Virus record (IMG/VR): IMGVR_UViG_3300045988_147128
Coordinates: 1 to 64,000 of that record
Reading direction: 5' to 3' (one strand)
From: a virus
Length of the DNA: 64,000 nucleotides
Part shown: piece by piece, positions 1-64,000 of the stretch
Position numbering within the stretch: the first letter of the stretch is position 1
Layout of the letters: each line of letters starts with the position of its first letter
Notes under the pieces: model-generated
Database searches by the model: none
What the model was told of the DNA's origin: nothing
The model's input: the letters and a program-made list of their open reading frames with translations, nothing else
Made by a program: the position numbers and the translations under genes

Positions 1-116
1 ACCAACAAAATTCAACAGATCAGAACTTTAAAACGGCATTTTGTAGTTTCTTCCCACAGAATTAAGACCTACAGTGCTTTAAAACAGCATTACATAGGTT
101 CCTTCCAACAGATTAA
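1..116. repeat. tandem direct repeats, ~50-nt unit (core CTTTAAAACRGCATT...TTCCMACAGAWTTAAG), 2 full + 1 partial copy; array runs off 5' window edge
   Basis: copy1 ~16-65 and copy2 ~66-116 align at ~75% identity; partial copy at 1-15. Confidence 0.6.
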
Positions 117-178
117 GGGCAAAGGACTGCATTATGTGAGTATTTTTTTTTTTAAGAGGGATGTTTAACAATTAAAAT

Positions 179-418: not shown

Positions 419-680
419 GTACGAACAGGCTGCCATAGAGGGGGAGTAGGCGGCGCCTTGGGCTAAGGCCTGCGGTTGTAGGTGGAGCGTAGGCCAGGGC
501 AGAGCCGGAACAGTTTATTGTGGAACGTGAAAAGAACAGATAAAAAAGGAGGAGATATGAAAAAGATATTTAAGACATTCTCTATTATGCTTGTCATAGA
601 AATAGTGTTGATAGCTATTTTAGATGCTATGTCGTAAGTGAGAAAAATTTTCTTCATTAATTTTCTTATGCTTTAGACAG

Positions 681-710
681 AACGCTCCCGTCTGCGAAGA
701 TCGGAGCGTT
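681..710 (+). terminator. hairpin AACGCTCC/GGAGCGTT with 14-nt loop CGTCTGCGAAGATC, then T-rich tail
   Basis: 8-bp perfect stem seen directly; member of conserved-loop hairpin family. Confidence 0.55.
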
Positions 711-735
711 TGCTTTATGGGATTCATGGTGCAGC

Positions 736-765
736 AGGTCGGTTCGATTCCGGCGATCTCACACA
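736..765 (+). other. tRNA 3'-half-like element copy 1 (T-arm GTCGG-TTCGATT-CCGGC + GATCTCACA); no pairing 5' acceptor strand found
   Basis: canonical GGTTCGATTCC T-loop; near-identical copy at 1590-1617; both precede an ORF by ~25 nt. Confidence 0.45.
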
Positions 766-791
766 ACATTAAAAACAAAGGAGGGAAGAAA

Positions 792-1133
792 ATGAAAGAT
801 GGTATCACATTACACCCAGAGCACGGATTGAATCCGTCTATAGAAGTCTGCATGATATGTGGCGAAGAGATGGGGATTGCTTTATTAGGAAATAATATCA
901 AAGGTCAGGCGCCGCATCATATATGCACGGGCGGAGTATGTGACGATTGCAAAAAGATAATAGATGACGGAGGCTGTTTTATTATCGAAGTCGAGGATGG
1001 ATCAGATCAAAAGAATCCGTATCGTACAGGAAGATATTGTGCGATAAAGAAAGAGGCGGCAAAGAAGATATTTGGACAGGAGCATAATATTGTGTACATG
1101 GAAAAGTCTGCATACAGTCAAATAATACTATAA
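792..1133 (+). CDS. Cys-rich hypothetical protein (CMICGEE...CTGGVCDDC), probable zinc binding
   Basis: ATG at 792 preceded by AAGGAGG SD; track ORF 717 starts inside the tRNA-like element. Confidence 0.6.
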   Translation: MKDGITLHPEHGLNPSIEVCMICGEEMGIALLGNNIKGQAPHHICTGGVCDDCKKIIDDGGCFIIEVEDGSDQKNPYRTGRYCAIKKEAAKKIFGQEHNIVYMEKSAYSQIIL

Positions 1134-1147
1134 AAATAAAGAAGGAT

Positions 1148-1462
1148 ATGTTTACAAAAGAAGAGCGATTATTCATATGGAAAGAGGTATATGGGATAAT
1201 TGATAGGTCAGAGAATGGGCAATACATATGCATTGCATTAAAAAATGTAGTATTTTATTTTTTCAAAACACATAAAGAAATAGAATTTATGAGTTTAGAC
1301 GAAATGGTGAGAATATATTTCCCAGAATTGAGGGCAAGGAGAAGTATGGCTACAGAACCAGAGGAAATATGGAGGATATATGGATGGTTTGGTTGTATTA
1401 GTCCAGAAACGAAGGAGGTGAGACTGAATATTGTAAAAGATATTATAAAAGAATTAGAATAG
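1148..1462 (+). CDS. hypothetical protein
   Basis: ORF track. Confidence 0.5.
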   Translation: MFTKEERLFIWKEVYGIIDRSENGQYICIALKNVVFYFFKTHKEIEFMSLDEMVRIYFPELRARRSMATEPEEIWRIYGWFGCISPETKEVRLNIVKDIIKELE

Positions 1463-1508
1463 TATTTTTGTTAACCTATTTTATTCATCAAATTAAGTTT
1501 TGGGTTTT

Positions 1509-1538
1509 GGCATGTCGGTTCGTGAGGATAGGCATGCC
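1509..1538 (+). terminator. hairpin GGCATG/CATGCC with loop TCGGTTCGTGAGGATAGG, followed by TATTTTTAT
   Basis: seen directly; loop matches conserved motif. Confidence 0.55.
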
Positions 1539-1571
1539 TATTTTTATGTCATAGAGGGATGACGCGGCGTG

Positions 1572-1617
1572 CCGGCATGTATGTGCCGGTCCTGGTTCGA
1601 TTCTGGGCATCTCACAA
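1572..1617 (+). other. tRNA 3'-half-like element copy 2: hairpin CCGGCA/TGCCGG + GGTTCGATTCTGGGC + ATCTCACA
   Basis: shares GGTTCGATTC-N5-ATCTCACA-AACAAT-AAAACAAA with copy 1. Confidence 0.45.
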
Positions 1618-1636
1618 ACAATAAAACAAAAGAGTT

Positions 1637-2127: not shown

Positions 2128-2155
2128 AGGAGCGCCGGCCTGTGAAGGTATGCGC
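2128..2155 (+). terminator. hairpin GAGCGC/GCGCTC, loop CGGCCTGTGAAGGTAT, followed by TTTGTATTTGTAT
   Basis: seen directly; conserved loop motif. Confidence 0.55.
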
Positions 2156-2191
2156 TCTTTGTATTTGTATAATGCATAAAACAATAATAAT

Positions 2192-2446: not shown

Positions 2447-3252
2447 TATTAAAAACGACAACCAACGAGTTTTGTTTCATCAGCGTAAGTTTCTATGAAA
2501 CAATAGCGGATCCTCGTCATTTCTTTGAACAGGATTATGAAGAGATGCCAGAATACGAGGAAGAAGCAGATTTTGATTTTGATTCTTATTGCAATAAGTT
2601 TATTCCTTTTGTACAGGAATGGGCGAATAAGGTGGGCGAACGCCTTTACGGATATGGTGTGAATAACATAAAGGTAACATCGGTCGGACATCCGAGTGAA
2701 TATAATTATGATACTGATTGGATGAATGTGGAGGTAGAATTTTGTGATAGATGGAGGCAAAGGATGTTATTTAATATTGGTAAGATTGTCAATGATGATA
2801 AATGCAAGAAGTATGCGGAAGCCAATTATAGGTCAGTATTAGGATACATCTTTTTAGGACCTGAAGATTTAAAGGAATTTGAAAAGGAAATAATAGAAAA
2901 GAAGTCGGATTCGAAATATGATATAACAATATTATTAAATATGTATCTAACTTTGGCTTTTGTAAAAGAATTTGGATTTAAAGCCGGAGAAGCGTGGAGT
3001 GAAATAACAGAATATGCTTACGGATGTTTATCGTATTCCGATTTTGCAACAACAGAGATGCTTATACCGGAAGGTTCGGAGCATTTATTCAAAGACATTT
3101 ACACGGCAAAGGCCGACGAATTATATCATCATGTCCTGGATAAATTCGGATGGGCGTGGCGTGATCCGAAATATAAATCAGAAACAGAATTATGCTCGAT
3201 GTTAAAATGGGCAAAAGAAAAAGGCTTGACCATTGAAGAGTTAAGTATTTAA
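2443..3252 (+). CDS. hypothetical protein (269 aa)
   Basis: long ORF, start overlaps upstream stop (ATGA). Confidence 0.6.
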   Translation: MILKTTTNEFCFISVSFYETIADPRHFFEQDYEEMPEYEEEADFDFDSYCNKFIPFVQEWANKVGERLYGYGVNNIKVTSVGHPSEYNYDTDWMNVEVEFCDRWRQRMLFNIGKIVNDDKCKKYAEANYRSVLGYIFLGPEDLKEFEKEIIEKKSDSKYDITILLNMYLTLAFVKEFGFKAGEAWSEITEYAYGCLSYSDFATTEMLIPEGSEHLFKDIYTAKADELYHHVLDKFGWAWRDPKYKSETELCSMLKWAKEKGLTIEELSI

Positions 3253-3265
3253 TTGTTAAACATAA

Positions 3266-3297
3266 GGCAGTAGTGGTGCGTGAGTATAGGTGCTGCC
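3266..3297 (+). terminator. hairpin GGCAG/CTGCC, loop contains GCGTGAGTATAGG
   Basis: seen directly; conserved loop motif; overlaps GTG start of track ORF 3280. Confidence 0.5.
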
Positions 3298-3315
3298 GTT
3301 AAAATATTTTATAAG

Positions 3316-3564
3316 ATGAAAAAAGAAGAGATTCAAACTATTTTATACACAATCAAAGAAGGAGACAGTATTAAAATCAAAGTACAAGACAAAAGTGAAG
3401 AGATAAGATTGCGGGATCATGTAAGAAGAACGCAGAAATACGGATACAGGTTTTGTTTGTCTCATTTGCATGATGGAATTTTCTATTTGGAGAAGTTGGA
3501 AGAGGGAGATAAAGATAAATACTATAGAGTAATAAACAGAGGAAATGGAAAGACCGGAGTATAA
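3316..3564 (+). CDS. hypothetical protein
   Basis: ATG at 3316 downstream of hairpin. Confidence 0.5.
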   Translation: MKKEEIQTILYTIKEGDSIKIKVQDKSEEIRLRDHVRRTQKYGYRFCLSHLHDGIFYLEKLEEGDKDKYYRVINRGNGKTGV

Positions 3565-3838
3565 TAAGCTACGCAAAATGGCTAAGACTACTCCAGGTCT
3601 GATAGTGGACGAGGCGCAAAACATGATGCGTGTATCGCTGTATGATAATGGGGAACTTAAGAAGATCGTAGTAGTAATGAAATGCGATTCTTTTTTACAG
3701 TCAAAAAGTAACATAGAAAAGATAATGTTATTATCATCTTCTATAGAAGATAGAAAAAACAGAGAAAAAAATAAAACAAAATCAGAAAATGAACAGAATA
3801 ACAAAAATAAGAGAAGAAATAGGAGGAAAACAGGTTGA
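3545..3838 (+). CDS. hypothetical Lys/Asn-rich protein
   Basis: ORF track; overlaps neighbours, weak. Confidence 0.35.
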   Translation: MERPEYNKLRKMAKTTPGLIVDEAQNMMRVSLYDNGELKKIVVVMKCDSFLQSKSNIEKIMLLSSSIEDRKNREKNKTKSENEQNNKNKRRNRRKTG

Positions 3839-4172
3839 TTTGACCTTCTATGGGCGTTTTTGCAGCCTTATCGAAGGTGATAGAAAGATAATACTAAAGG
3901 CAATAAAAAACGGCCGTAAGAAAGGCGTAATCGGAGCCATTCAGCCCGGAAGACATGATAGAATTTGGACCACATGGGCTATTGCTTTTGAGGATCTGAA
4001 GGTAGGGGATACGGTAGAGTTTAGTACATCCGGGAAATACAATCCAGGTTTTCATTCTACAGAAAAGTATGTAGGATGTGTAGAATGGATAAAAGGATCG
4101 GAATGTGCGATAAAAACCGGCAAAGGGATGGCAGTAGTATTAATTAAACACGTGGAAAGGGTAGTAAGATGA
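3789..4172 (+). CDS. hypothetical protein
   Basis: ORF track. Confidence 0.5.
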   Translation: MNRITKIREEIGGKQVDLTFYGRFCSLIEGDRKIILKAIKNGRKKGVIGAIQPGRHDRIWTTWAIAFEDLKVGDTVEFSTSGKYNPGFHSTEKYVGCVEWIKGSECAIKTGKGMAVVLIKHVERVVR

Positions 4173-4450
4173 AATTGAGAGAATTTGTAGAACTCTTTGA
4201 TAAGAATGATGTAAAGGATTTGTTTAAGTCATTATCTTTATGTATGGAATACGTAAGGATAGATTTACATGTATTTAATGTAGGTGCTTATGTTACGTGC
4301 CTGTACAGTAATGATCTTGAACAGCTTTCAACGATGAAAGGGTGCGCTATATACGCGATAGTAGAAGTACCATGTTTATTTGAGGCATTTATGGAATATG
4401 CTTCACCGGAATTGAAAGCATATTATGATAAACTAACGAAAGAAGTGTGA
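4169..4450 (+). CDS. hypothetical protein
   Basis: ORF track; ATGA overlap. Confidence 0.5.
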   Translation: MKLREFVELFDKNDVKDLFKSLSLCMEYVRIDLHVFNVGAYVTCLYSNDLEQLSTMKGCAIYAIVEVPCLFEAFMEYASPELKAYYDKLTKEV

Positions 4451-4451
4451 C

Positions 4452-4934
4452 ATGAAAGAGGAAGTAGAACGGATAAAGAAGTTGGTAGGCATAGATCATA
4501 ATAGATGGGAGCAACCTTGTACATGTGATAAATGCAAGAACATGTGTAAGGTTCCTTGTATTGGTACGCCAAAAGACATAGAGGCTATCATAGATGCCGG
4601 ATACGCTGATAGGTTAAAAGAAACAATGTGGATGGTAGGGTATCTTGCAGTGAAGGAAAAACCAATAGCGATGATCCAGCCGACAGAGAAAGACGGGTGG
4701 TGCGCATTCCGCCGGCCAGACGGTCTCTGCGAGCTGCATGACCGTGGACTAAAGCCGACCGAAGGAGTTCTGGCTTCCTGTAAGATGATTGAAGAAGACA
4801 ATGTTCCAACATACGAAACGTCTGTACTTAGAGCAGTGGCTAATGAGTGGGTTAAGGTGGAGAACTTTGGAGATATAATGAGGGTCGTTTTTAAATTTTT
4901 GCATGAAAATGAACGTAGAAAACAAATTAGATAA
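4452..4934 (+). CDS. Cys-rich hypothetical protein (CTCDKCKNMCKVPC)
   Basis: ORF track; Cys cluster. Confidence 0.55.
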   Translation: MKEEVERIKKLVGIDHNRWEQPCTCDKCKNMCKVPCIGTPKDIEAIIDAGYADRLKETMWMVGYLAVKEKPIAMIQPTEKDGWCAFRRPDGLCELHDRGLKPTEGVLASCKMIEEDNVPTYETSVLRAVANEWVKVENFGDIMRVVFKFLHENERRKQIR

Positions 4935-6452: not shown

Positions 6453-7193
6453 ATGGAAAATCCAATTATTGTTCCGTTTGATTTAAATACGGCGAGAAAA
6501 ATTAAAAGCGGAGAAATAGAAGGTTCGGTATTAATAAACAATATTGAAATAGAATTTGCATATGAGTCGAAAGACTGTGCAGATTCTTATAATTTACTTT
6601 TTGTAAAAAAAGATGGACGTGGAATAAGTGCTGTATATGCTAACACAGAAGGTTGCACTCTTGGTAACTCCACTCTGGAATTGAAAGTGGAGGCTGGAGC
6701 ATATTTTAAGAAAGGAGATGTATTAACAAGCACTAAAGGATGTCAATTTATATATGATGGACTTATTACCAAAGGAGTAATGGGAAGTATATGTGGAATG
6801 GCAACATCTGGAGATATTGAGTTTGATAATAACAAATTATGGACTGATGTGTATAGCGAAGATGAAAATCGGAGTGTAAGAAAGGCTGAAAAAGAAGAGA
6901 AGAAATTTTTAGCAGAAAAGATTATAAAAGCCGAAGACAGCAGAAAAATAAATATAATAAAACAATATTTAAGCGAATATAAGTATCTATTAGATAAGAT
7001 GCCAAAACATGACTTCAAACCATTTGAACGAGTATTGGTAAGAAGAACTAACCAAGAGAGGTGGAAATTGCATTTATTCTCCAGAGGATTAGGAACATAT
7101 GAAGAATATGAATGTTTGGGAGGCGTAACATTTAGTCAGTGTATCCCATACGAAGGAAACGAACATCTTTTAGGAACTAATAAAAACAAATAA
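6453..7193 (+). CDS. hypothetical protein, paralogue A (N-term IVPFDLNTARKIKSGE)
   Basis: ATG 6453; N-terminal motif shared with next gene. Confidence 0.6.
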   Translation: MENPIIVPFDLNTARKIKSGEIEGSVLINNIEIEFAYESKDCADSYNLLFVKKDGRGISAVYANTEGCTLGNSTLELKVEAGAYFKKGDVLTSTKGCQFIYDGLITKGVMGSICGMATSGDIEFDNNKLWTDVYSEDENRSVRKAEKEEKKFLAEKIIKAEDSRKINIIKQYLSEYKYLLDKMPKHDFKPFERVLVRRTNQERWKLHLFSRGLGTYEEYECLGGVTFSQCIPYEGNEHLLGTNKNK

Positions 7194-62182: not shown

Positions 62183-63817
62183 TCAAATTTTTATCTTCTT
62201 AATTTTCTCAACCATATTCTTATATCCACAAAACTTGCTACTAATAACATCAAAGATAGATTCTGACCAACCGGCAAGGTTAAGAATATTGGACCCTTTG
62301 TAAAACATCTCACTTCCATATCCTTGAATAGAAAGAGAAACGATCTTACAATCCGGGTTCACTTTCTTAAACTCCTTCAGAAGTTCAGCAAACTTACCAC
62401 TTGTATAATGAGAGGTTCTCTCCCATACAACAGATTTACCATCTCCTACCTGCATATCTGAAATAACGTACAAGTTATCTACCTTGATCTTATCTTTAAC
62501 GCACTTATCCAAGAATATAAAAAGACCATCTTCGGTAGCACCACCGCATTTTTCGCCGGCAGCAAAAGACGCTTTGTTATTCCATAAGACCCCTTTACTT
62601 CTATCATATTCGTAATTGATAAGTTTGTCACCAAACATACCGATAAATACGTCAGGGAGCACGGAAGCAATCATGCAACCAAATAAGTTACCGATGATAG
62701 CCGTACTTGTTTTGCTGAAGGCAGATACCGTTGATGATCCTCCTCCGTCTCCACGTACAGAGCCAGAGTGGTCAATCAGGATAGCCGACCGCCCCTCCAA
62801 CACCGGCAGGTTCTTGCAGGATATGGTAATCGCCTGCTCCAGCGCATCCAGGATCTTATTTTTCTTGTATGCTGTAAGTCCAGCACGTTTCTTATCAGAT
62901 TCAAACATAATATCAGAACCAGGTTTCTTTACGCCAATAGCCTCAACCTCCTTATAAGCAGAAGCGAAACGGAAAGGAAGCATCTTAGAATTAAGAACCT
63001 TCTCTTCTGTCGTAAGCTGCTTACATACCTCATTAATCTGATCGGGAGCGTATTCGATTATGTTTCTAAGGTTACGGACCATATTGAAAATAGGCATACC
63101 CTTTACGTTAGAAACCACGTCCCTAATAGCATCACCGAGCGCTTCCTTCTTTTCTTTATTGTCTTTCTTATCCTGACCGGCTTTAGACATCTCCTTTTCA
63201 AGAATCTTACTTTCGTACAGCCCGGACAAAGACCGTCCTTCCATAAGATACTGGAAAGCTGTTTTATTAGCCTGATTGCCTTTAGGGTGGAATAAATTAA
63301 CAAGGTCGATCATCGTAATAACCCTGCTATTCATCTTGTACTTATCAATCCGATAAGGATCAAGACCCTCCAGGGCTATTTTAAATCCTTTCTTGATAGC
63401 ACTGGATATACCTCTTAACTTCTTCGGATCTTTGCCGTTAAGAGCTGCATAGCAACCAAGAATCTCACTCATGTCATCAGGACGCATAACGATCTTATTA
63501 TAGAACCTGGACGCCCATTCTTTACCAGATACCTTGCCAGCCAATACAGAAGCCATAAGATGTGTGACGGACCGTAGCTTGCCTTCCTTCCGGACGTACA
63601 ATGCCGTCTGCGCTGCGAAGTACGGATCGACCTGATCCATGAGGTTCTTAATCCGATTTACCTTGTCTTCTTCCTTCTCGTAATAAGAATCAGATAACAT
63701 GGTTGTCATCACCGTAGAAACCAGCTCCTCCTCTACACCAGGCTTATACGCAGCCTCTCCCATGTGGTTGGTGATTGTAGGCTTAACACCTTCATTTTTC
63801 TTGTTAAACTTGCCCAT
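62183..63817 (-). CDS. rsr: Ro60/Rsr orthologue (TROVE domain + vWA domain with MIDAS DxSxS)
   Basis: SDSYYEKEEDKV ~ Ro60 GGTYYIKEQKL; DPYFAAQTALY ~ EPMLFALAIC; ILIDHSGSV = MIDAS; ~540 aa as in bacterial Rsr. Confidence 0.75.
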   Translation of the reverse strand: MGKFNKKNEGVKPTITNHMGEAAYKPGVEEELVSTVMTTMLSDSYYEKEEDKVNRIKNLMDQVDPYFAAQTALYVRKEGKLRSVTHLMASVLAGKVSGKEWASRFYNKIVMRPDDMSEILGCYAALNGKDPKKLRGISSAIKKGFKIALEGLDPYRIDKYKMNSRVITMIDLVNLFHPKGNQANKTAFQYLMEGRSLSGLYESKILEKEMSKAGQDKKDNKEKKEALGDAIRDVVSNVKGMPIFNMVRNLRNIIEYAPDQINEVCKQLTTEEKVLNSKMLPFRFASAYKEVEAIGVKKPGSDIMFESDKKRAGLTAYKKNKILDALEQAITISCKNLPVLEGRSAILIDHSGSVRGDGGGSSTVSAFSKTSTAIIGNLFGCMIASVLPDVFIGMFGDKLINYEYDRSKGVLWNNKASFAAGEKCGGATEDGLFIFLDKCVKDKIKVDNLYVISDMQVGDGKSVVWERTSHYTSGKFAELLKEFKKVNPDCKIVSLSIQGYGSEMFYKGSNILNLAGWSESIFDVISSKFCGYKNMVEKIKKIKI

Positions 63818-63932: not shown

Positions 63933-64000
63933 ACGAAAATAATGGACTTGAACCATTGCTGATACTTTAAAAGAGTATTGCTCTACCATCTGAGCTAAAA
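63933..64000 (-). tRNA. tRNA-Lys (anticodon UUU), 5' end truncated by window edge
   Basis: D-arm GCTC-AGATGGTA-GAGC, anticodon arm ATACT-CTTTTAA-AGTAT, T-arm AATGG-TTCAAGT-CCATT on minus strand; acceptor pairing could not be confirmed. Confidence 0.7.

What the first reader, a model, noticed from the sequence alone, without database searches (positions are those of the whole stretch)
736..1630. Two copies of a tRNA 3'-half-like element preceding early genes; possible tRNA mimic
At 741-763 and 1595-1616 the sequence GGTTCGATTC-N5-ATCTCACA recurs, with a canonical T-stem/T-loop and an acceptor-like 3' strand. Both copies continue with near-identical AACAAT(T)AAAAACAAAGGAG leading into an SD and ATG. 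Each copy lies just downstream of a conserved-loop hairpin. I could not find a complementary 5' acceptor strand or a proper D or anticodon arm in either copy, so these are not complete tRNAs. Possible roles are a tRNA-like processing signal for RNase P/Z or CCA-adding enzyme, a remnant att-type tRNA 3' end, or a tRNA-mimic module of a Y-RNA-like sRNA. Bacterial YrlA RNAs carry exactly such T-arm mimicry and partner with Rsr, which this element encodes at 62183-63817.
Basis: partly seen in the sequence, partly recalled or inferred. Interest (0 to 1): 0.65.

Follow-up and report, generated by a model that had tools for sequence, protein, structure and literature searches.

The report
Anticodon-less tRNA-like elements before phage genes
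Two short RNA elements in the early region of an abundant human-gut (epsilon crAss-like) phage fold like the top half of a tRNA, with an acceptor stem and T arm but no anticodon. They most likely act as cutting marks for the host's tRNA-processing enzymes between genes, and not as partners of the phage's Ro protein.

Summary
The repeat is real: GGTTCGATTC-N5-ATCTCACA occurs at 741-763 and 1594-1616, 2 hits against 0.04 expected.

It is there, closed partly by G-U pairs.
- E1 (718-762): a 7-bp acceptor stem, a 13-nt linker and a canonical T arm.
- E2 (1555-1615): a 6-bp acceptor stem, a 7-bp middle hairpin and a T arm.
- Neither has a D arm or an anticodon arm. ARAGORN calls no tRNA here and no Rfam family reaches its threshold.

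The window comes from an epsilon crAss-like phage, 91% identical to crAssE-Sib. Both elements occur in about 95% of 80 relatives chosen through a neighbouring protein that itself drifts to 75% identity. Stem changes mostly keep pairing. A third paralogue (E3) lies just outside the window and shows compensatory changes.

Each element sits 7-16 nt after a covarying hairpin and 20-29 nt before a start codon, on the sense strand.

Best reading (confidence 0.42, inferred): tRNA-like punctuation cut by RNase P and RNase Z.

The Y-RNA/Rsr link is not supported. A YrlA-like candidate lies next to rsr in 16 of 17 relatives, just beyond the window end.

I class this as a new variant of a known kind.

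The parts
681..710 (+). Hairpin H1: AACGCUCC-C-GUCU-GCGA-AGAU-C-GGAGCGUU, followed by a U-rich spacer (711-717)
   Evidence: It folds in every context tried. Relatives show double compensatory changes in the outer stem: AACGCUCC/GGAGCGUU, AAUGCUCC/GGAGCAUU and AGUGCUCC/GGAGCACU. The simple terminator scan does not flag it, probably because the stem is interrupted.
718..762 (+). E1, a tRNA-like element. Acceptor 5' strand 718-724 (UGGGAUU); linker 725-737; T stem 738-742 with 750-754; T loop 743-749 (UUCGAUU); acceptor 3' strand 755-761 (GAUCUCA); discriminator C762.
   Evidence: Descriptor scan: 7 of 7 acceptor pairs and 5 of 5 T-stem pairs. The minimum-energy fold of the excised 45 nt is exactly this structure, with pair probabilities 0.68-0.94. 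Across 22 distinct variants 99.2% of cells pair, against 39-58% when partners are slid. One double compensatory change is seen (G52-C62 to A-U), and three pair-keeping changes sit on the 3' strand of one variant.
763..791 (+). A-rich leader with a Shine-Dalgarno sequence (AAGGAGGG, 778-785) before the ATG at 792 of a 113-aa zinc-ribbon-like ORF (792-1133)
   Evidence: Read directly from the sequence. Only about the first 12 nt are constant in relatives. crAssE-Sib has an extra gene inserted here.
1509..1538 (+). Hairpin H2: GGCAUGUC-G-GUUC-GUGA-GGAU-A-GGCAUGCC, followed by UAUUUUUAUGUCAUAG (1539-1554)
   Evidence: Folds. Variants change only by pair-keeping steps. The whole intergenic stretch 1455-1626 is almost invariant in 49 distinct relatives.
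1555..1615 (+). E2, a tRNA-like element. Acceptor 5' strand 1555-1561 (AGGGAUG, with A1 opposite A72 unpaired); linker 1562-1570; middle hairpin 1571-1590 (GCCGGCA-UGUAUG-UGCCGGU); T stem 1591-1595 with 1603-1607; T loop 1596-1602; acceptor 3' strand 1608-1614 (CAUCUCA); discriminator C1615.
   Evidence: Found by the descriptor scan. Infernal aligns it to tRNA-Sec as acceptor, variable-arm hairpin and T arm, with the D and anticodon arms deleted (16.4 bits). Across 27 variants 98.1% of cells pair, against 30-51% when slid, with 12 extra pair types, all one-sided. The acceptor stem and middle hairpin are in the minimum-energy fold (probability at least 0.9), but the T arm has only 0.15.
1616..1636 (+). 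A-rich leader before the ATG at 1637 of a 77-aa ORF (1637-1870)
   Evidence: Read directly from the sequence. Relatives carry a different gene directly after AACAAUAAA.
2129..2158 (+). Hairpin H3, similar in design to H1 and H2, with no tRNA-like element after it (context only)
   Evidence: Read directly from the sequence. It shows that the hairpin and the tRNA-like element are separable modules.
62183..63817 (-). Rsr (Ro60-like) gene.
   Evidence: TROVE domain, 51.5 bits. Annotated as Ro sixty-related protein in crAssE-Sib.
63934..64000 (-). tRNA-Lys(UUU), cut off by the window end (context)
   Evidence: Rfam tRNA 48.2 bits. It is complete in crAssE-Sib and its relatives.

Best explanation
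E1 and E2 are anticodon-less tRNA-like RNA modules. Each has an acceptor stem stacked on a canonical T arm, which is the part of a tRNA that RNase P, RNase Z and the CCA-adding enzyme recognise. They lie on the sense strand of the early, rightward transcripts of an epsilon crAss-like phage.

Each sits 7-16 nt after a stable hairpin and 20-29 nt before the next start codon. I propose they act as tRNA punctuation:
1. Host RNase P cuts at the 5' edge, before U718 and before A1555. This leaves the upstream RNA ending in a protective hairpin.
2. A 3' tRNA-processing enzyme (RNase Z type) cuts after the discriminator, C762 and C1615. The element carries no encoded CCA. This leaves the downstream mRNA with a short A-rich leader and releases a mini-tRNA of 45 or 61 nt.

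Shown here: the fold, its tRNA geometry, its strand specificity, its conservation and its fixed position relative to hairpins and start codons.

Inferred: transcription through the element, both cleavages, and any benefit to expression.
For: 1. tRNA geometry.
   - The T loop carries the invariant tRNA residues (G53 U54 U55 C56 R57 A58 C61).
   - The T stem is 5 bp and abuts a 6-7-bp acceptor stem with no spacer. This gives the 12-bp stack that RNase P measures (ruler concept in PMC4919913, listed).
2. The same architecture recurs with different stem sequences.
   - E1 and E2 differ on both sides at pairs 49-65 (G-C against C-G) and 7-66 (U-G against G-C).
   - A third paralogue, E3, lies about 1.9 kb upstream of E1 in relatives. 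It has 95% pairing, 3 pairs with double changes, and 0 of 500 shuffles reach its covariation score.
   - An unrelated viral family (L016) has a hairpin, then a mini-cloverleaf, then a leader, then a gene.
3. Conservation.
   - 75 of 80 loci picked through the adjacent protein (75-96% amino-acid identity) carry two matches to the motif, and nearly all of those matches are exact in the T loop and 3' strand.
   - Of 30 one-sided stem variant types, 25 keep pairing against 67% expected (P = 0.035), and 4 are double compensatory.
4. Strand specificity. There are 3 G-U pairs in E1 and 4 in E2. These would be A-C mismatches on the other strand.
5. Position.
   - The elements are always sense to the flanking genes.
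   - There is no room for a promoter between hairpin and element.
   - The start codon follows 20-29 nt after the discriminator for E1, E2, E3 and L016.
   - One relative (L014) lost H2 but kept E2 with its downstream gene.
6. The phage's genuine tRNAs also lack an encoded CCA. One of them, tRNA-Cys in crAssE-Sib, ends 17 nt before the next start codon. So processing of tRNA-mRNA co-transcripts by the CCA-less route is already needed in this system.
7. Precedent. RNase P cuts phage M3 RNA, the P1/P7 C4 RNA precursor, T4 gene 32 mRNA and polycistronic mRNAs (PMC11143913).
8. The element is not coding. The commonest E1 variant has an in-frame TAG in the only open frame.
Against: - There are no RNA data, so transcription through the hairpins and both cleavages are inferred.
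- H2 is followed by a U run and may terminate transcription. In that case the element would be reached only by read-through.
- Covariation is modest, because the relatives are close and most changes are one-sided. The shuffle control for E2 shows no excess.
- The E2 T arm is thermodynamically weak, with probability 0.15.
- The whole intergenic region of about 150 nt is nearly invariant, including parts with no assigned role. Selection may therefore act on something else, such as a DNA-level signal.
- Natural variants lacking the E2 middle hairpin (L043, L076) and a hybrid E1/E2 element (L101) exist.
- The E2 and E3 acceptors have a mismatch at position 1-72.
- The host, and therefore its set of RNases, is unknown.
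Confidence: 0.42

Rival explanations
1. The elements are the functional product. After processing and CCA addition, the mini-tRNAs act in trans as stable decoys or sponges for proteins that read the acceptor stem and T arm. Candidates are tRNA-targeting defence toxins, AlaRS, EF-Tu and SmpB, or modification enzymes.
For: - The T loop is strictly conserved although there is no D loop to dock it.
- G2-C71, G3-U70 and G4-C69 in most E1 and E2 copies resemble the alanine identity set of tRNA-Ala and tmRNA (identity rule from established knowledge).
- The phage invests in RNA repair and quality-control genes: Rsr, a YrlA-like RNA, and in crAssE-Sib a polynucleotide kinase/3'-phosphatase and a CCA-adding-like enzyme.
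- A distant crAss-like phage, phi14:2, carries a tmRNA in its early non-coding region.
Against: - G3-U70 is not conserved. It is A3-U70 in some E2 variants, G3-C70 in one E1 variant and in E3, and A3-U70 in L016.
- The discriminator is C and not A, and no CCA is encoded.
- The CCA-adding-like gene of crAssE-Sib is absent from this window.
- The tight coupling to a start codon 20-29 nt downstream is not explained by a trans-acting role.
Confidence: 0.2
2. The element stays attached and acts in cis as a structured 5' cap of the downstream mRNA. It would protect the mRNA against 5'-end-dependent decay or tune ribosome access to the adjacent start site.
For: The distance to the start codon is fixed and short. 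The element travels with the downstream gene unit when the upstream hairpin is deleted (L014). Different downstream genes are placed right after the same 12-nt tail.
Against: A generic stable hairpin would do the same job. This role does not explain why the T-loop sequence and the tRNA geometry are kept. It is also hard to separate from the punctuation model, because RNase P cutting would create exactly such a 5' end.
Confidence: 0.15
3. The elements are decayed tRNA genes (pseudo-tRNAs) with internal deletions. They would persist only because the phages sampled are close relatives, or because they act as recombination linkers between gene cassettes.
For: - Overall DNA identity among the relatives is high, about 91% to crAssE-Sib.
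- Gene gain and loss occurs directly 3' of both elements.
- A hybrid, L101, shows recombination between the two copies, and deletion variants exist.
Against: - The elements stay invariant while the adjacent protein falls to 75% identity.
- Stem changes are biased towards keeping pairs, and compensatory changes occur in E1 and E3.
- Three paralogues with different sequences keep the same architecture and the same placement.
- A similar arrangement exists in unrelated contigs (L016) and possibly in phi14:2.
Confidence: 0.1
4. The conserved sequence is a DNA-level signal, for example an early promoter for the virion RNA polymerase (N4-style hairpin promoter) or a replication or packaging site near the genome end. 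The tRNA likeness would then be incidental.
For: - There are two copies within 3 kb of the genome terminus, ahead of early genes, with a third copy on the other side of the terminus.
- No sigma-70-like promoter is evident nearby.
- The promoters of crAss virion RNA polymerases are unknown, and no common motif was found for phi14:2 (10.1101/2020.03.07.982082).
Against: - G-U pairs make the fold specific to the sense strand.
- The T-loop residues and the stem lengths match tRNA rules in detail, which a promoter need not do.
- E3 has a different acceptor sequence and variable T-loop positions (59, 60), yet keeps the fold.
Confidence: 0.06
5. One reading: the elements are the tRNA-mimic module of a Y-RNA-like sRNA that binds the phage Rsr.
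For: The phage encodes Rsr. Bacterial Y RNAs contain T-arm mimics, and second Y RNAs with only a T arm exist, such as YrlB of M. smegmatis (PMC4201824). E2 gives a weak local match to the tRNA-like part of Deinococcus Yrn1 (12.5 bits, E = 5).
Against: - There is no YrlA hit at E < 10.
- The order of arms is wrong for YrlA.
- The flanks do not pair into a closing stem and there is no GNCGAA motif.
- The elements are 61 kb from rsr.
- A YrlA-like candidate sits beside rsr in 16 of 17 relatives.
Confidence: 0.05

Closest known systems
mascRNA / MEN-beta tRNA-like 3'-end modules of MALAT1 and NEAT1 (established knowledge)
   Same: A non-decoding tRNA-like fold sits directly after a protective RNA structure. 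RNase P cutting at its 5' edge makes the 3' end of the upstream RNA. RNase Z and CCA addition release a small tRNA-like RNA.
   Different: Those modules are in eukaryotic nuclear lncRNAs and have a full cloverleaf. Here the setting is a phage, the D and anticodon arms are missing, a coding gene follows 20-29 nt downstream, and cleavage has not been shown. No match to any Rfam family approached its gathering score.
t-elements of plant mitochondrial mRNAs (established knowledge)
   Same: tRNA-like folds reduced to an acceptor stem and T arm lie in untranslated regions between genes and serve as RNase P and RNase Z processing signals.
   Different: Those are in an organelle, and there is no sequence relationship. 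The phage elements are paired with an upstream hairpin and have a fixed distance to the start codon.
tRNA-like domain of tmRNA (RF00023)
   Same: An acceptor stem plus T arm without an anticodon arm. Most E1 and E2 copies have G3-U70. The E1 T arm matches the tmRNA T arm.
   Different: There is no mRNA-like domain, no pseudoknots and no tag ORF between the two acceptor strands (only 13-29 nt). The discriminator is C, no CCA is encoded, and the score is 6.2 bits against a gathering score of 47. G3-U70 is not conserved.
Bacterial Y RNAs: YrlA (RF02553) and Deinococcus Yrn1 (RF01053)
   Same: A non-coding RNA with a canonical T arm and an acceptor-like stem. M. smegmatis YrlA is cut by RNase P and receives CCA (PMC4201824). 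The phage encodes Rsr.
   Different: The arms are in the tRNA order and not the YrlA order. There is no D arm and no long Rsr-binding stem, and the elements are not next to rsr. Scores are far below threshold. A separate YrlA-like candidate lies beside rsr.
Non-tRNA RNase P substrates of phages: P1/P7 C4 RNA precursor, phi80 M3 RNA, T4 gene 32 mRNA (PMC11143913)
   Same: Phage transcripts matured by host RNase P through tRNA-like local structure.
   Different: Those lack a canonical T arm of this kind. None is described as a repeated hairpin-plus-tRNA-like module ahead of early genes.

Membership tests
Canonical tRNA (RF00005) | Cloverleaf with D arm and anticodon arm, detected by tRNA finders | tested here: not met
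   ARAGORN finds 0 genes in the window. There is no RF00005 match at E < 10. Only 13 nt (E1) or 29 nt (E2) separate the acceptor 5' strand from the T stem.
Canonical tRNA (RF00005) | 7-bp acceptor stem directly abutting a 5-bp T stem, with a G53-UUCRANY-C61 loop | tested here: met
   E1 has 7 of 7 and 5 of 5 pairs. E2 has 6 of 7 and 5 of 5.
YrlA (RF02553) | Covariance-model score at or above the gathering score (69 bits) | tested here: not met
   No YrlA match at E < 10 on either element.
YrlA (RF02553) | Permuted order: T arm, then acceptor-like stem-loop, then D arm, enclosed by a long stem carrying GNCGAA(N)G | tested here: not met
   The order is acceptor-5', linker, T arm, acceptor-3'. 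There is no D arm. The flanks 706-717/762-774 and 1545-1554/1615-1625 do not pair. The motif is absent: the H1 loop has UGCGAAG, one base out of register (definition from PMC4201824).
YrlA (RF02553) | Encoded next to rsr | tested here: not met
   E1 and E2 are about 61 kb from rsr (62183-63817). A YrlA-like match lies about 400 nt upstream of rsr in 16 of 17 relatives.
YrlA (RF02553) | Bound by Rsr | not testable with these tools
   Needs co-immunoprecipitation.
tmRNA (RF00023) | tRNA-like domain formed by the two ends, with an mRNA-like tag ORF and pseudoknots between them | tested here: not met
   Only 13-29 nt lie between the acceptor strands. ARAGORN calls no tmRNA. The RF00023 match covers the T arm only, at 6.2 bits.
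tmRNA (RF00023) | G3-U70 with A73 and a CCA end (alanine identity) | tested here: inconclusive
   G3-U70 is present in the window copies and in most relatives. It is replaced by A-U or G-C in some E1 and E2 variants and is absent in E3 and L016. The discriminator is C and no CCA is encoded.
tRNA-like processing (punctuation) elements: mascRNA, t-elements | Non-decoding acceptor/T-arm fold on the sense strand at the junction of two functional RNAs | tested here: met
   Both elements lie between ORFs on the coding strand, after a hairpin and 21-29 nt before a start codon.
tRNA-like processing (punctuation) elements: mascRNA, t-elements | Cleavage by RNase P at the 5' edge and by RNase Z after the discriminator | not testable with these tools
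   No RNA-end data are available. Needs end mapping or in vitro cleavage.
att-site remnant (3' part of a host tRNA) | Identity to the 3' end of a host tRNA, an integrase nearby, and no 5' strand of its own | tested here: not met
   A scan of 185,579 species genomes gave 23 hits, none of them a tRNA. Caveat: the pattern requires A at position 74, so tRNAs with an encoded CCA are not covered. The elements have their own 5' strand. No integrase was found in epsilon crAss-like phages (PMC11054128).
Intrinsic terminator (hairpins H1, H2) | G+C-rich hairpin followed by a U run | tested here: inconclusive
   The hairpins are real and covary. H2 is followed by UAUUUUUAU and H1 by UGCUUUAU. The simple scan does not report them.

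The most novel reading that the evidence does not exclude
The released 45-61-nt mini-tRNAs receive CCA and, through G2-C71, G3-U70 and G4-C69, are charged or at least bound by AlaRS, EF-Tu or SmpB. They would then act as mimics of the tmRNA tRNA-like domain, or as tRNA decoys. In that way an abundant gut phage would blunt host trans-translation or tRNA-targeting immunity early in infection.
Probability: 0.07. Interest if true: 0.85.

Novelty: new variant of a known kind. Interest (0 to 1): 0.55.

Why it matters
Crassvirales are among the most abundant viruses of the human gut, and how their early genes are expressed is largely unknown. For phi14:2, early transcripts showed no common promoter motif, and highly expressed early non-coding RNAs were left unexplained (10.1101/2020.03.07.982082).

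A conserved family of anticodon-less tRNA-like modules, each paired with a hairpin and placed just ahead of a start codon, gives a concrete and testable mechanism. The phage may use the host's tRNA-processing enzymes to cut long early transcripts into defined, stable mRNAs.

It would also extend the tRNA-like punctuation principle, known from mitochondria and from MALAT1, to phages.

There is a practical consequence for annotation. In crAssE-Sib two annotated hypothetical proteins overlap these regions: one covers H2 and E2 and one covers the non-coding region upstream of E3. Standard tRNA finders miss the elements altogether.

Tried and rejected
- Complete or split tRNA: rejected (ARAGORN, Rfam, no distant 5' half needed).
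- Protein-coding N-terminal extension. The ATG at 717 is in frame with the ATG at 792. Rejected because the commonest E1 variant has an in-frame TAG. The CDS annotated over E2 in crAssE-Sib has no counterpart ORF in the window.
- Long closing stem between the flanks (Y-RNA style). The A/U pairing predicted for the window is lost in relatives that have other downstream genes.
- Alternative pairing between the H2 loop (GUGAGG) and the 3' strand (UCUCAC). It has no counterpart in E1, so I dropped it.
- The same acceptor with other T loops (GGTTCRAATC-N5-ATYTCACA) in viral contigs gave 7 hits, all chance matches without a T stem.
- Host-genome scan: no tRNA source found.
- A combined MAFFT alignment of E1, E2 and L016 (A2) misplaced acceptor position 7 and T-stem position 49. 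I therefore built no covariance model and used my own descriptor scan instead.
- A partner enzyme: the CCA-adding/poly(A) polymerase-like gene of crAssE-Sib is absent from this window.
- Pfam and PHROGs searches of the flanking small ORFs gave no functional clue.
- Literature searches for tRNA-like elements in Crassvirales or phage leaders found nothing relevant.
- The GC-rich island at 419-557 as a third copy: it shares CATAGAGGG..GCGGCG with E2, but I found no T arm or acceptor stem.
Full report
**1. What is in the sequence**

The motif GGTTCGATTC-N5-ATCTCACA occurs exactly twice in the 64-kb window, at 741-763 and 1594-1616 on the + strand. With up to three mismatches there is no further hit. 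Shuffles give 0.04 expected, and 0 of 100 shuffles reach 2.

Both copies form a 5-bp stem around UUCGAUU, which is the canonical T arm. ARAGORN finds no tRNA anywhere in the window. At gathering thresholds Rfam finds only a tRNA-Lys cut by the right end of the window.

Searches limited to 400-2300, and then to each element alone, give nothing near a threshold. The best scores are the tmRNA T arm at 6.2 bits for E1, and for E2 tRNA-Sec at 16.4 bits and Deinococcus Y RNA at 12.5 bits.

**2. The missing 5' strand is there**

Allowing G-U pairs, each T arm is enclosed by an acceptor stem with exact tRNA geometry.

| Feature | E1 | E2 |
|---|---|---|
| Acceptor 5' strand | UGGGAUU 718-724 | (A)GGGAUG 1555-1561 |
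| Acceptor 3' strand | GAUCUCA 755-761 | CAUCUC(A) 1608-1614 |
| Acceptor pairs | 7 bp | 6 bp, plus an A-A mismatch at 1-72 |
| T stem | 738-742 with 750-754 | 1591-1595 with 1603-1607 |
| Discriminator | C762 | C1615 |
| Between acceptor and T stem | 13 nt unpaired | 9-nt linker plus a 7-bp hairpin (1571-1590) |

- A descriptor scan of my own looked for a T loop of the form G-[U/A]UCRANH-C (H = A, C or U), a T stem with all 5 positions paired, and an adjacent 7-nt strand with at least 6 pairs to a strand 2-60 nt upstream.
- It finds only E1, E2 and the cut tRNA in both strands of the window. Shuffles give 0.54 hits.
- For the excised 45 nt of E1, the minimum-energy fold is exactly this structure.
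- For E2, the acceptor stem and middle hairpin are in the minimum-energy fold (probability at least 0.9). The T arm, with two G-U pairs, has only 0.15.
- Infernal's own alignment of E2 to tRNA-Sec reads it the same way: acceptor, variable-arm hairpin and T arm, with the D and anticodon arms deleted.

So these are "top-half" tRNA mimics, not 3' halves.

**3. Where the window comes from**

The first 6 kb match phage crAssE-Sib (OR575929, 151 kb, human gut) at 91% identity. This is an epsilon crAss-like phage described in PMC11054128. That paper reports six tRNAs, and a term search of its text found no mention of Ro60, Y RNA or promoters.

Both elements are present in crAssE-Sib, but extra genes are inserted immediately 3' of each.

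**4. Conservation**

- An exact-pattern scan of IMG/VR returned more than 119 loci, mostly from contigs of 76-253 kb, and most carry both copies.
- To avoid selecting on the motif itself, I fetched 80 loci through the ORF that lies between the elements (1148-1462). That protein falls to 75-77% identity.
- Even so, 75 of the 80 loci carry two matches to the motif, and nearly all of those matches are exact.
- The whole intergenic stretch of about 150 nt (hairpin, spacer, element, first ~12 nt of leader) is nearly invariant, more so than the flanking ORFs.

**5. Pairing evidence**

| Element | Distinct variants | Cells paired | Paired when partners are slid | Notes |
|---|---|---|---|---|
| E1 | 22 | 99.2% | 39-58% | One double compensatory change (G52-C62 to A-U). 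One variant has three changes on the 3' acceptor strand, all pair-keeping. |
| E2 | 27 | 98.1% | 30-51% | 12 extra pair types, all one-sided. The shuffle control shows no excess. |

Pooled over the three elements (E1, E2 and E3, described below), 25 of 30 one-sided variant types keep pairing, against 67% expected under a null matched for transitions and transversions (P = 0.035). A further 4 types are double compensatory.

This is modest support. The stronger argument is the comparison between paralogues. E1 and E2 differ on both sides at pairs 49-65 and 7-66, yet keep the same fold. The three or four G-U pairs per element make the fold specific to the sense strand, which points to RNA.

**6. 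More members of the class**

- **E3.** The descriptor scan over all fetched loci revealed a third type. It has the acceptor UGGUUGU/GCAACCU, a long middle arm, the T arm UCCGG-UUCGAUU-CCGGA and C73. A 27-nt A-rich leader and an ATG follow.
- E3 lies about 1.9 kb upstream of E1, just outside the window. In crAssE-Sib it sits about 0.5 kb from the genome terminus, on the other side of it.
- E3 has 95% pairing and three pairs with changes on both sides. None of 500 shuffles reaches its covariation score.
- **L016, L018, L092.** An unrelated set of viral contigs has a hairpin, then a 64-nt mini-cloverleaf (CGAAAUG/CAUUUCA), then a leader, then a DNA methyltransferase gene.
- **phi14:2.** This distant crAss-like phage has a similar candidate at 1772-1849, behind a terminator-like hairpin.

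**7. Context of the elements**

Each element follows a hairpin. H1 (681-710) and H2 (1509-1538) have the same design: an 8-bp stem, a 1x1 internal loop, a 4-bp stem and a GNRA tetraloop. The outer stem of H1 shows double compensatory changes. H3 (2129-2158) is similar but has no element after it, so the hairpin and the element are separate modules.

- The spacer between hairpin and element is 7 nt (E1) or 16 nt (E2). That leaves no room for a promoter.
- The sigma-70 scan shows nothing convincing nearby.
- The start codon lies 20-29 nt after the discriminator in every case examined for E1, E2, E3 and L016.
- One relative (L014) lost H2 but kept E2 with its downstream gene.
- L101 is a hybrid made of the E1 5' part and the E2 3' part.
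- L043 and L076 lack the E2 middle hairpin.

The phage's true tRNAs have no encoded CCA. In crAssE-Sib, tRNA-Cys ends 17 nt before the next start codon. Processing of tRNA-mRNA co-transcripts is therefore already part of this phage's biology.

**8. Mechanism**

The acceptor/T-arm stack is the part of a tRNA that RNase P, RNase Z and the CCA-adding enzyme recognise. This rests on established knowledge; the RNase P ruler concept is in PMC4919913, and phage and mRNA substrates are listed in PMC11143913.

I therefore propose tRNA-like punctuation:
1. RNase P cuts before 718 and before 1555. The upstream RNA is left ending in a hairpin.
2. RNase Z cuts after C762 and C1615. The downstream mRNA is left with a short leader, and a mini-tRNA is released.

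The fold, its placement and its conservation are shown here. Transcription through the elements and both cleavages are inferred. Confidence is 0.42. Section 10 lists the rivals.

**9. The Y-RNA idea**

The TROVE domain in 62183-63817 confirms Rsr. The elements nevertheless fail the defining YrlA features:
- the order of arms is wrong;
- there is no D arm;
- there is no closing stem with a GNCGAA motif;
- they are not adjacent to rsr (definitions from PMC4201824).

In crAssE-Sib, and in 16 of 17 further relatives, a YrlA-like match of 25-35 bits lies about 400 nt upstream of rsr. This is below the gathering score of 69 but consistent in position and full-length against the model. The order is YrlA-like, tRNA-Tyr, tRNA-Lys, rsr. 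In this window that position falls just beyond base 64000. Rsr therefore already has a better candidate partner.

**10. Other readings rejected or kept as rivals**

Rejected:
- **att remnant.** No tRNA in 185,579 species genomes carries this T loop plus 3' strand. The caveat is that the pattern fixes A at position 74. The elements also have their own 5' strand.
- **Coding extension.** The commonest E1 variant has an in-frame TAG.

Kept as rivals:
- trans-acting decoy or tmRNA-domain mimic (0.20). G3-U70 is common but not conserved;
- cis 5' stabiliser or translation element (0.15);
- relic or recombination linker (0.10);
- DNA-level promoter-like signal (0.06);
- Y-RNA module (0.05).

**11. 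Novelty**

tRNA-like processing or mimicry modules are a known kind: mascRNA, plant mitochondrial t-elements, the tmRNA tRNA-like domain, YrlA, and phage RNase P substrates.

A conserved, multi-copy family of anticodon-less acceptor/T-arm modules, each coupled to a hairpin and to a start codon, in the early region of crAss-like phages is not in Rfam. I also could not find it in the searchable literature. I class it as a new variant of a known kind, with interest 0.55.

Noticed in passing
Relatives, about 1.9 kb left of window position 718 (e.g. L004 minus strand 3490-3560; crAssE-Sib record ~500-569, L315): A third tRNA-like element, E3. It has the acceptor UGGUUGU/GCAACCU, a long middle arm and a T arm, and an A-rich leader and ATG follow. 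Its stems covary. At least 150 nt of structured non-coding sequence precede it, and that sequence also has covarying stems.
   Followed up: yes
Just beyond window position 64000 (crAssE-Sib L123 10602-10706; L234-L312 at ~200-320): A YrlA-like RNA candidate (RF02553, 25-35 bits, below the gathering score) lies upstream of tRNA-Tyr, tRNA-Lys and rsr in 16 of 17 relatives. One relative (L293) instead has a HEARO RNA (90 bits) there.
   Followed up: partly
L314 (Cellulophaga phage phi14:2, NC_021806) 4031-4502: The long early intergenic region of phi14:2 contains a tmRNA. ARAGORN gives the tag GSSVQKLAMVA, and Rfam RF00023 scores 46 bits against a gathering score of 47, E = 3.8e-16. A 2020 preprint reported highly transcribed early RNAs of unknown function in this part of the genome.
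   Followed up: partly
L314 1727-1849: phi14:2 has a terminator-like hairpin followed by an uncalled tRNA-like element (UGUUGGU/ACCAGUG, T arm GAAGG-UUCGAAU-CCUUC, long middle hairpin). The layout resembles E2 and E3.
   Followed up: no
window 419-557: A non-coding island of 63-68% G+C in a genome of about 35% G+C, conserved in most relatives. It shares CATAGAGGG..GCGGCG with the 5' part of E2. I found no T arm, no acceptor stem and no Rfam match.
   Followed up: partly
window 1-140 (crAssE-Sib L001 650-810): Imperfect repeats of about 50 nt (TTTAAAACAGCATT..GTAGGTTC..AACAGATTAAG) near the genome terminus. These may be early promoters or terminal repeats. Tandem Repeats Finder does not call them.
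   Followed up: no
window 2129-2158: A third hairpin with the same design as H1 and H2 (GUGA-containing loop, U-rich tail), but no tRNA-like element follows.
   Followed up: partly
L315 (crAssE-Sib record 2615-4409 and 6649-7027): Polynucleotide kinase/3'-phosphatase and NrnA-like phosphodiesterase genes lie near the terminus. There is also a cluster of tRNA-Met, Gln, Arg and Cys, whose last tRNA ends 17 nt before the next start codon. None of the phage tRNAs has an encoded CCA.
   Followed up: no
L016 6960-7080, L018, L092: Unrelated viral contigs carry a hairpin, then a 64-nt mini-cloverleaf tRNA-like element (CGAAAUG/CAUUUCA, C73), then a leader, then a DNA methyltransferase gene.
   Followed up: partly
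L101, L043, L076, L014: Natural variants. L101 is a hybrid of the E1 5' part and the E2 3' part, which implies recombination within the shared T loop. L043 and L076 have lost the E2 middle hairpin between its GCCGGU repeats. L014 has a deletion that removes H2 but keeps E2.
   Followed up: partly
L001 2541-2699 and L315 556-843: In crAssE-Sib, one annotated 'hypothetical protein' CDS covers H2 plus E2, and another covers the structured region upstream of E3. Both are probably spurious ORF calls.
   Followed up: partly
3' end of rsr in relatives (locus positions 2249-2313), corresponding to the rsr 3' end near window 62183-62260: Repeated weak matches to the Rfam Transposase-1 RNA (24-27 bits, gathering score 42.8) inside the end of the rsr coding sequence. 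These are probably noise.
   Followed up: no
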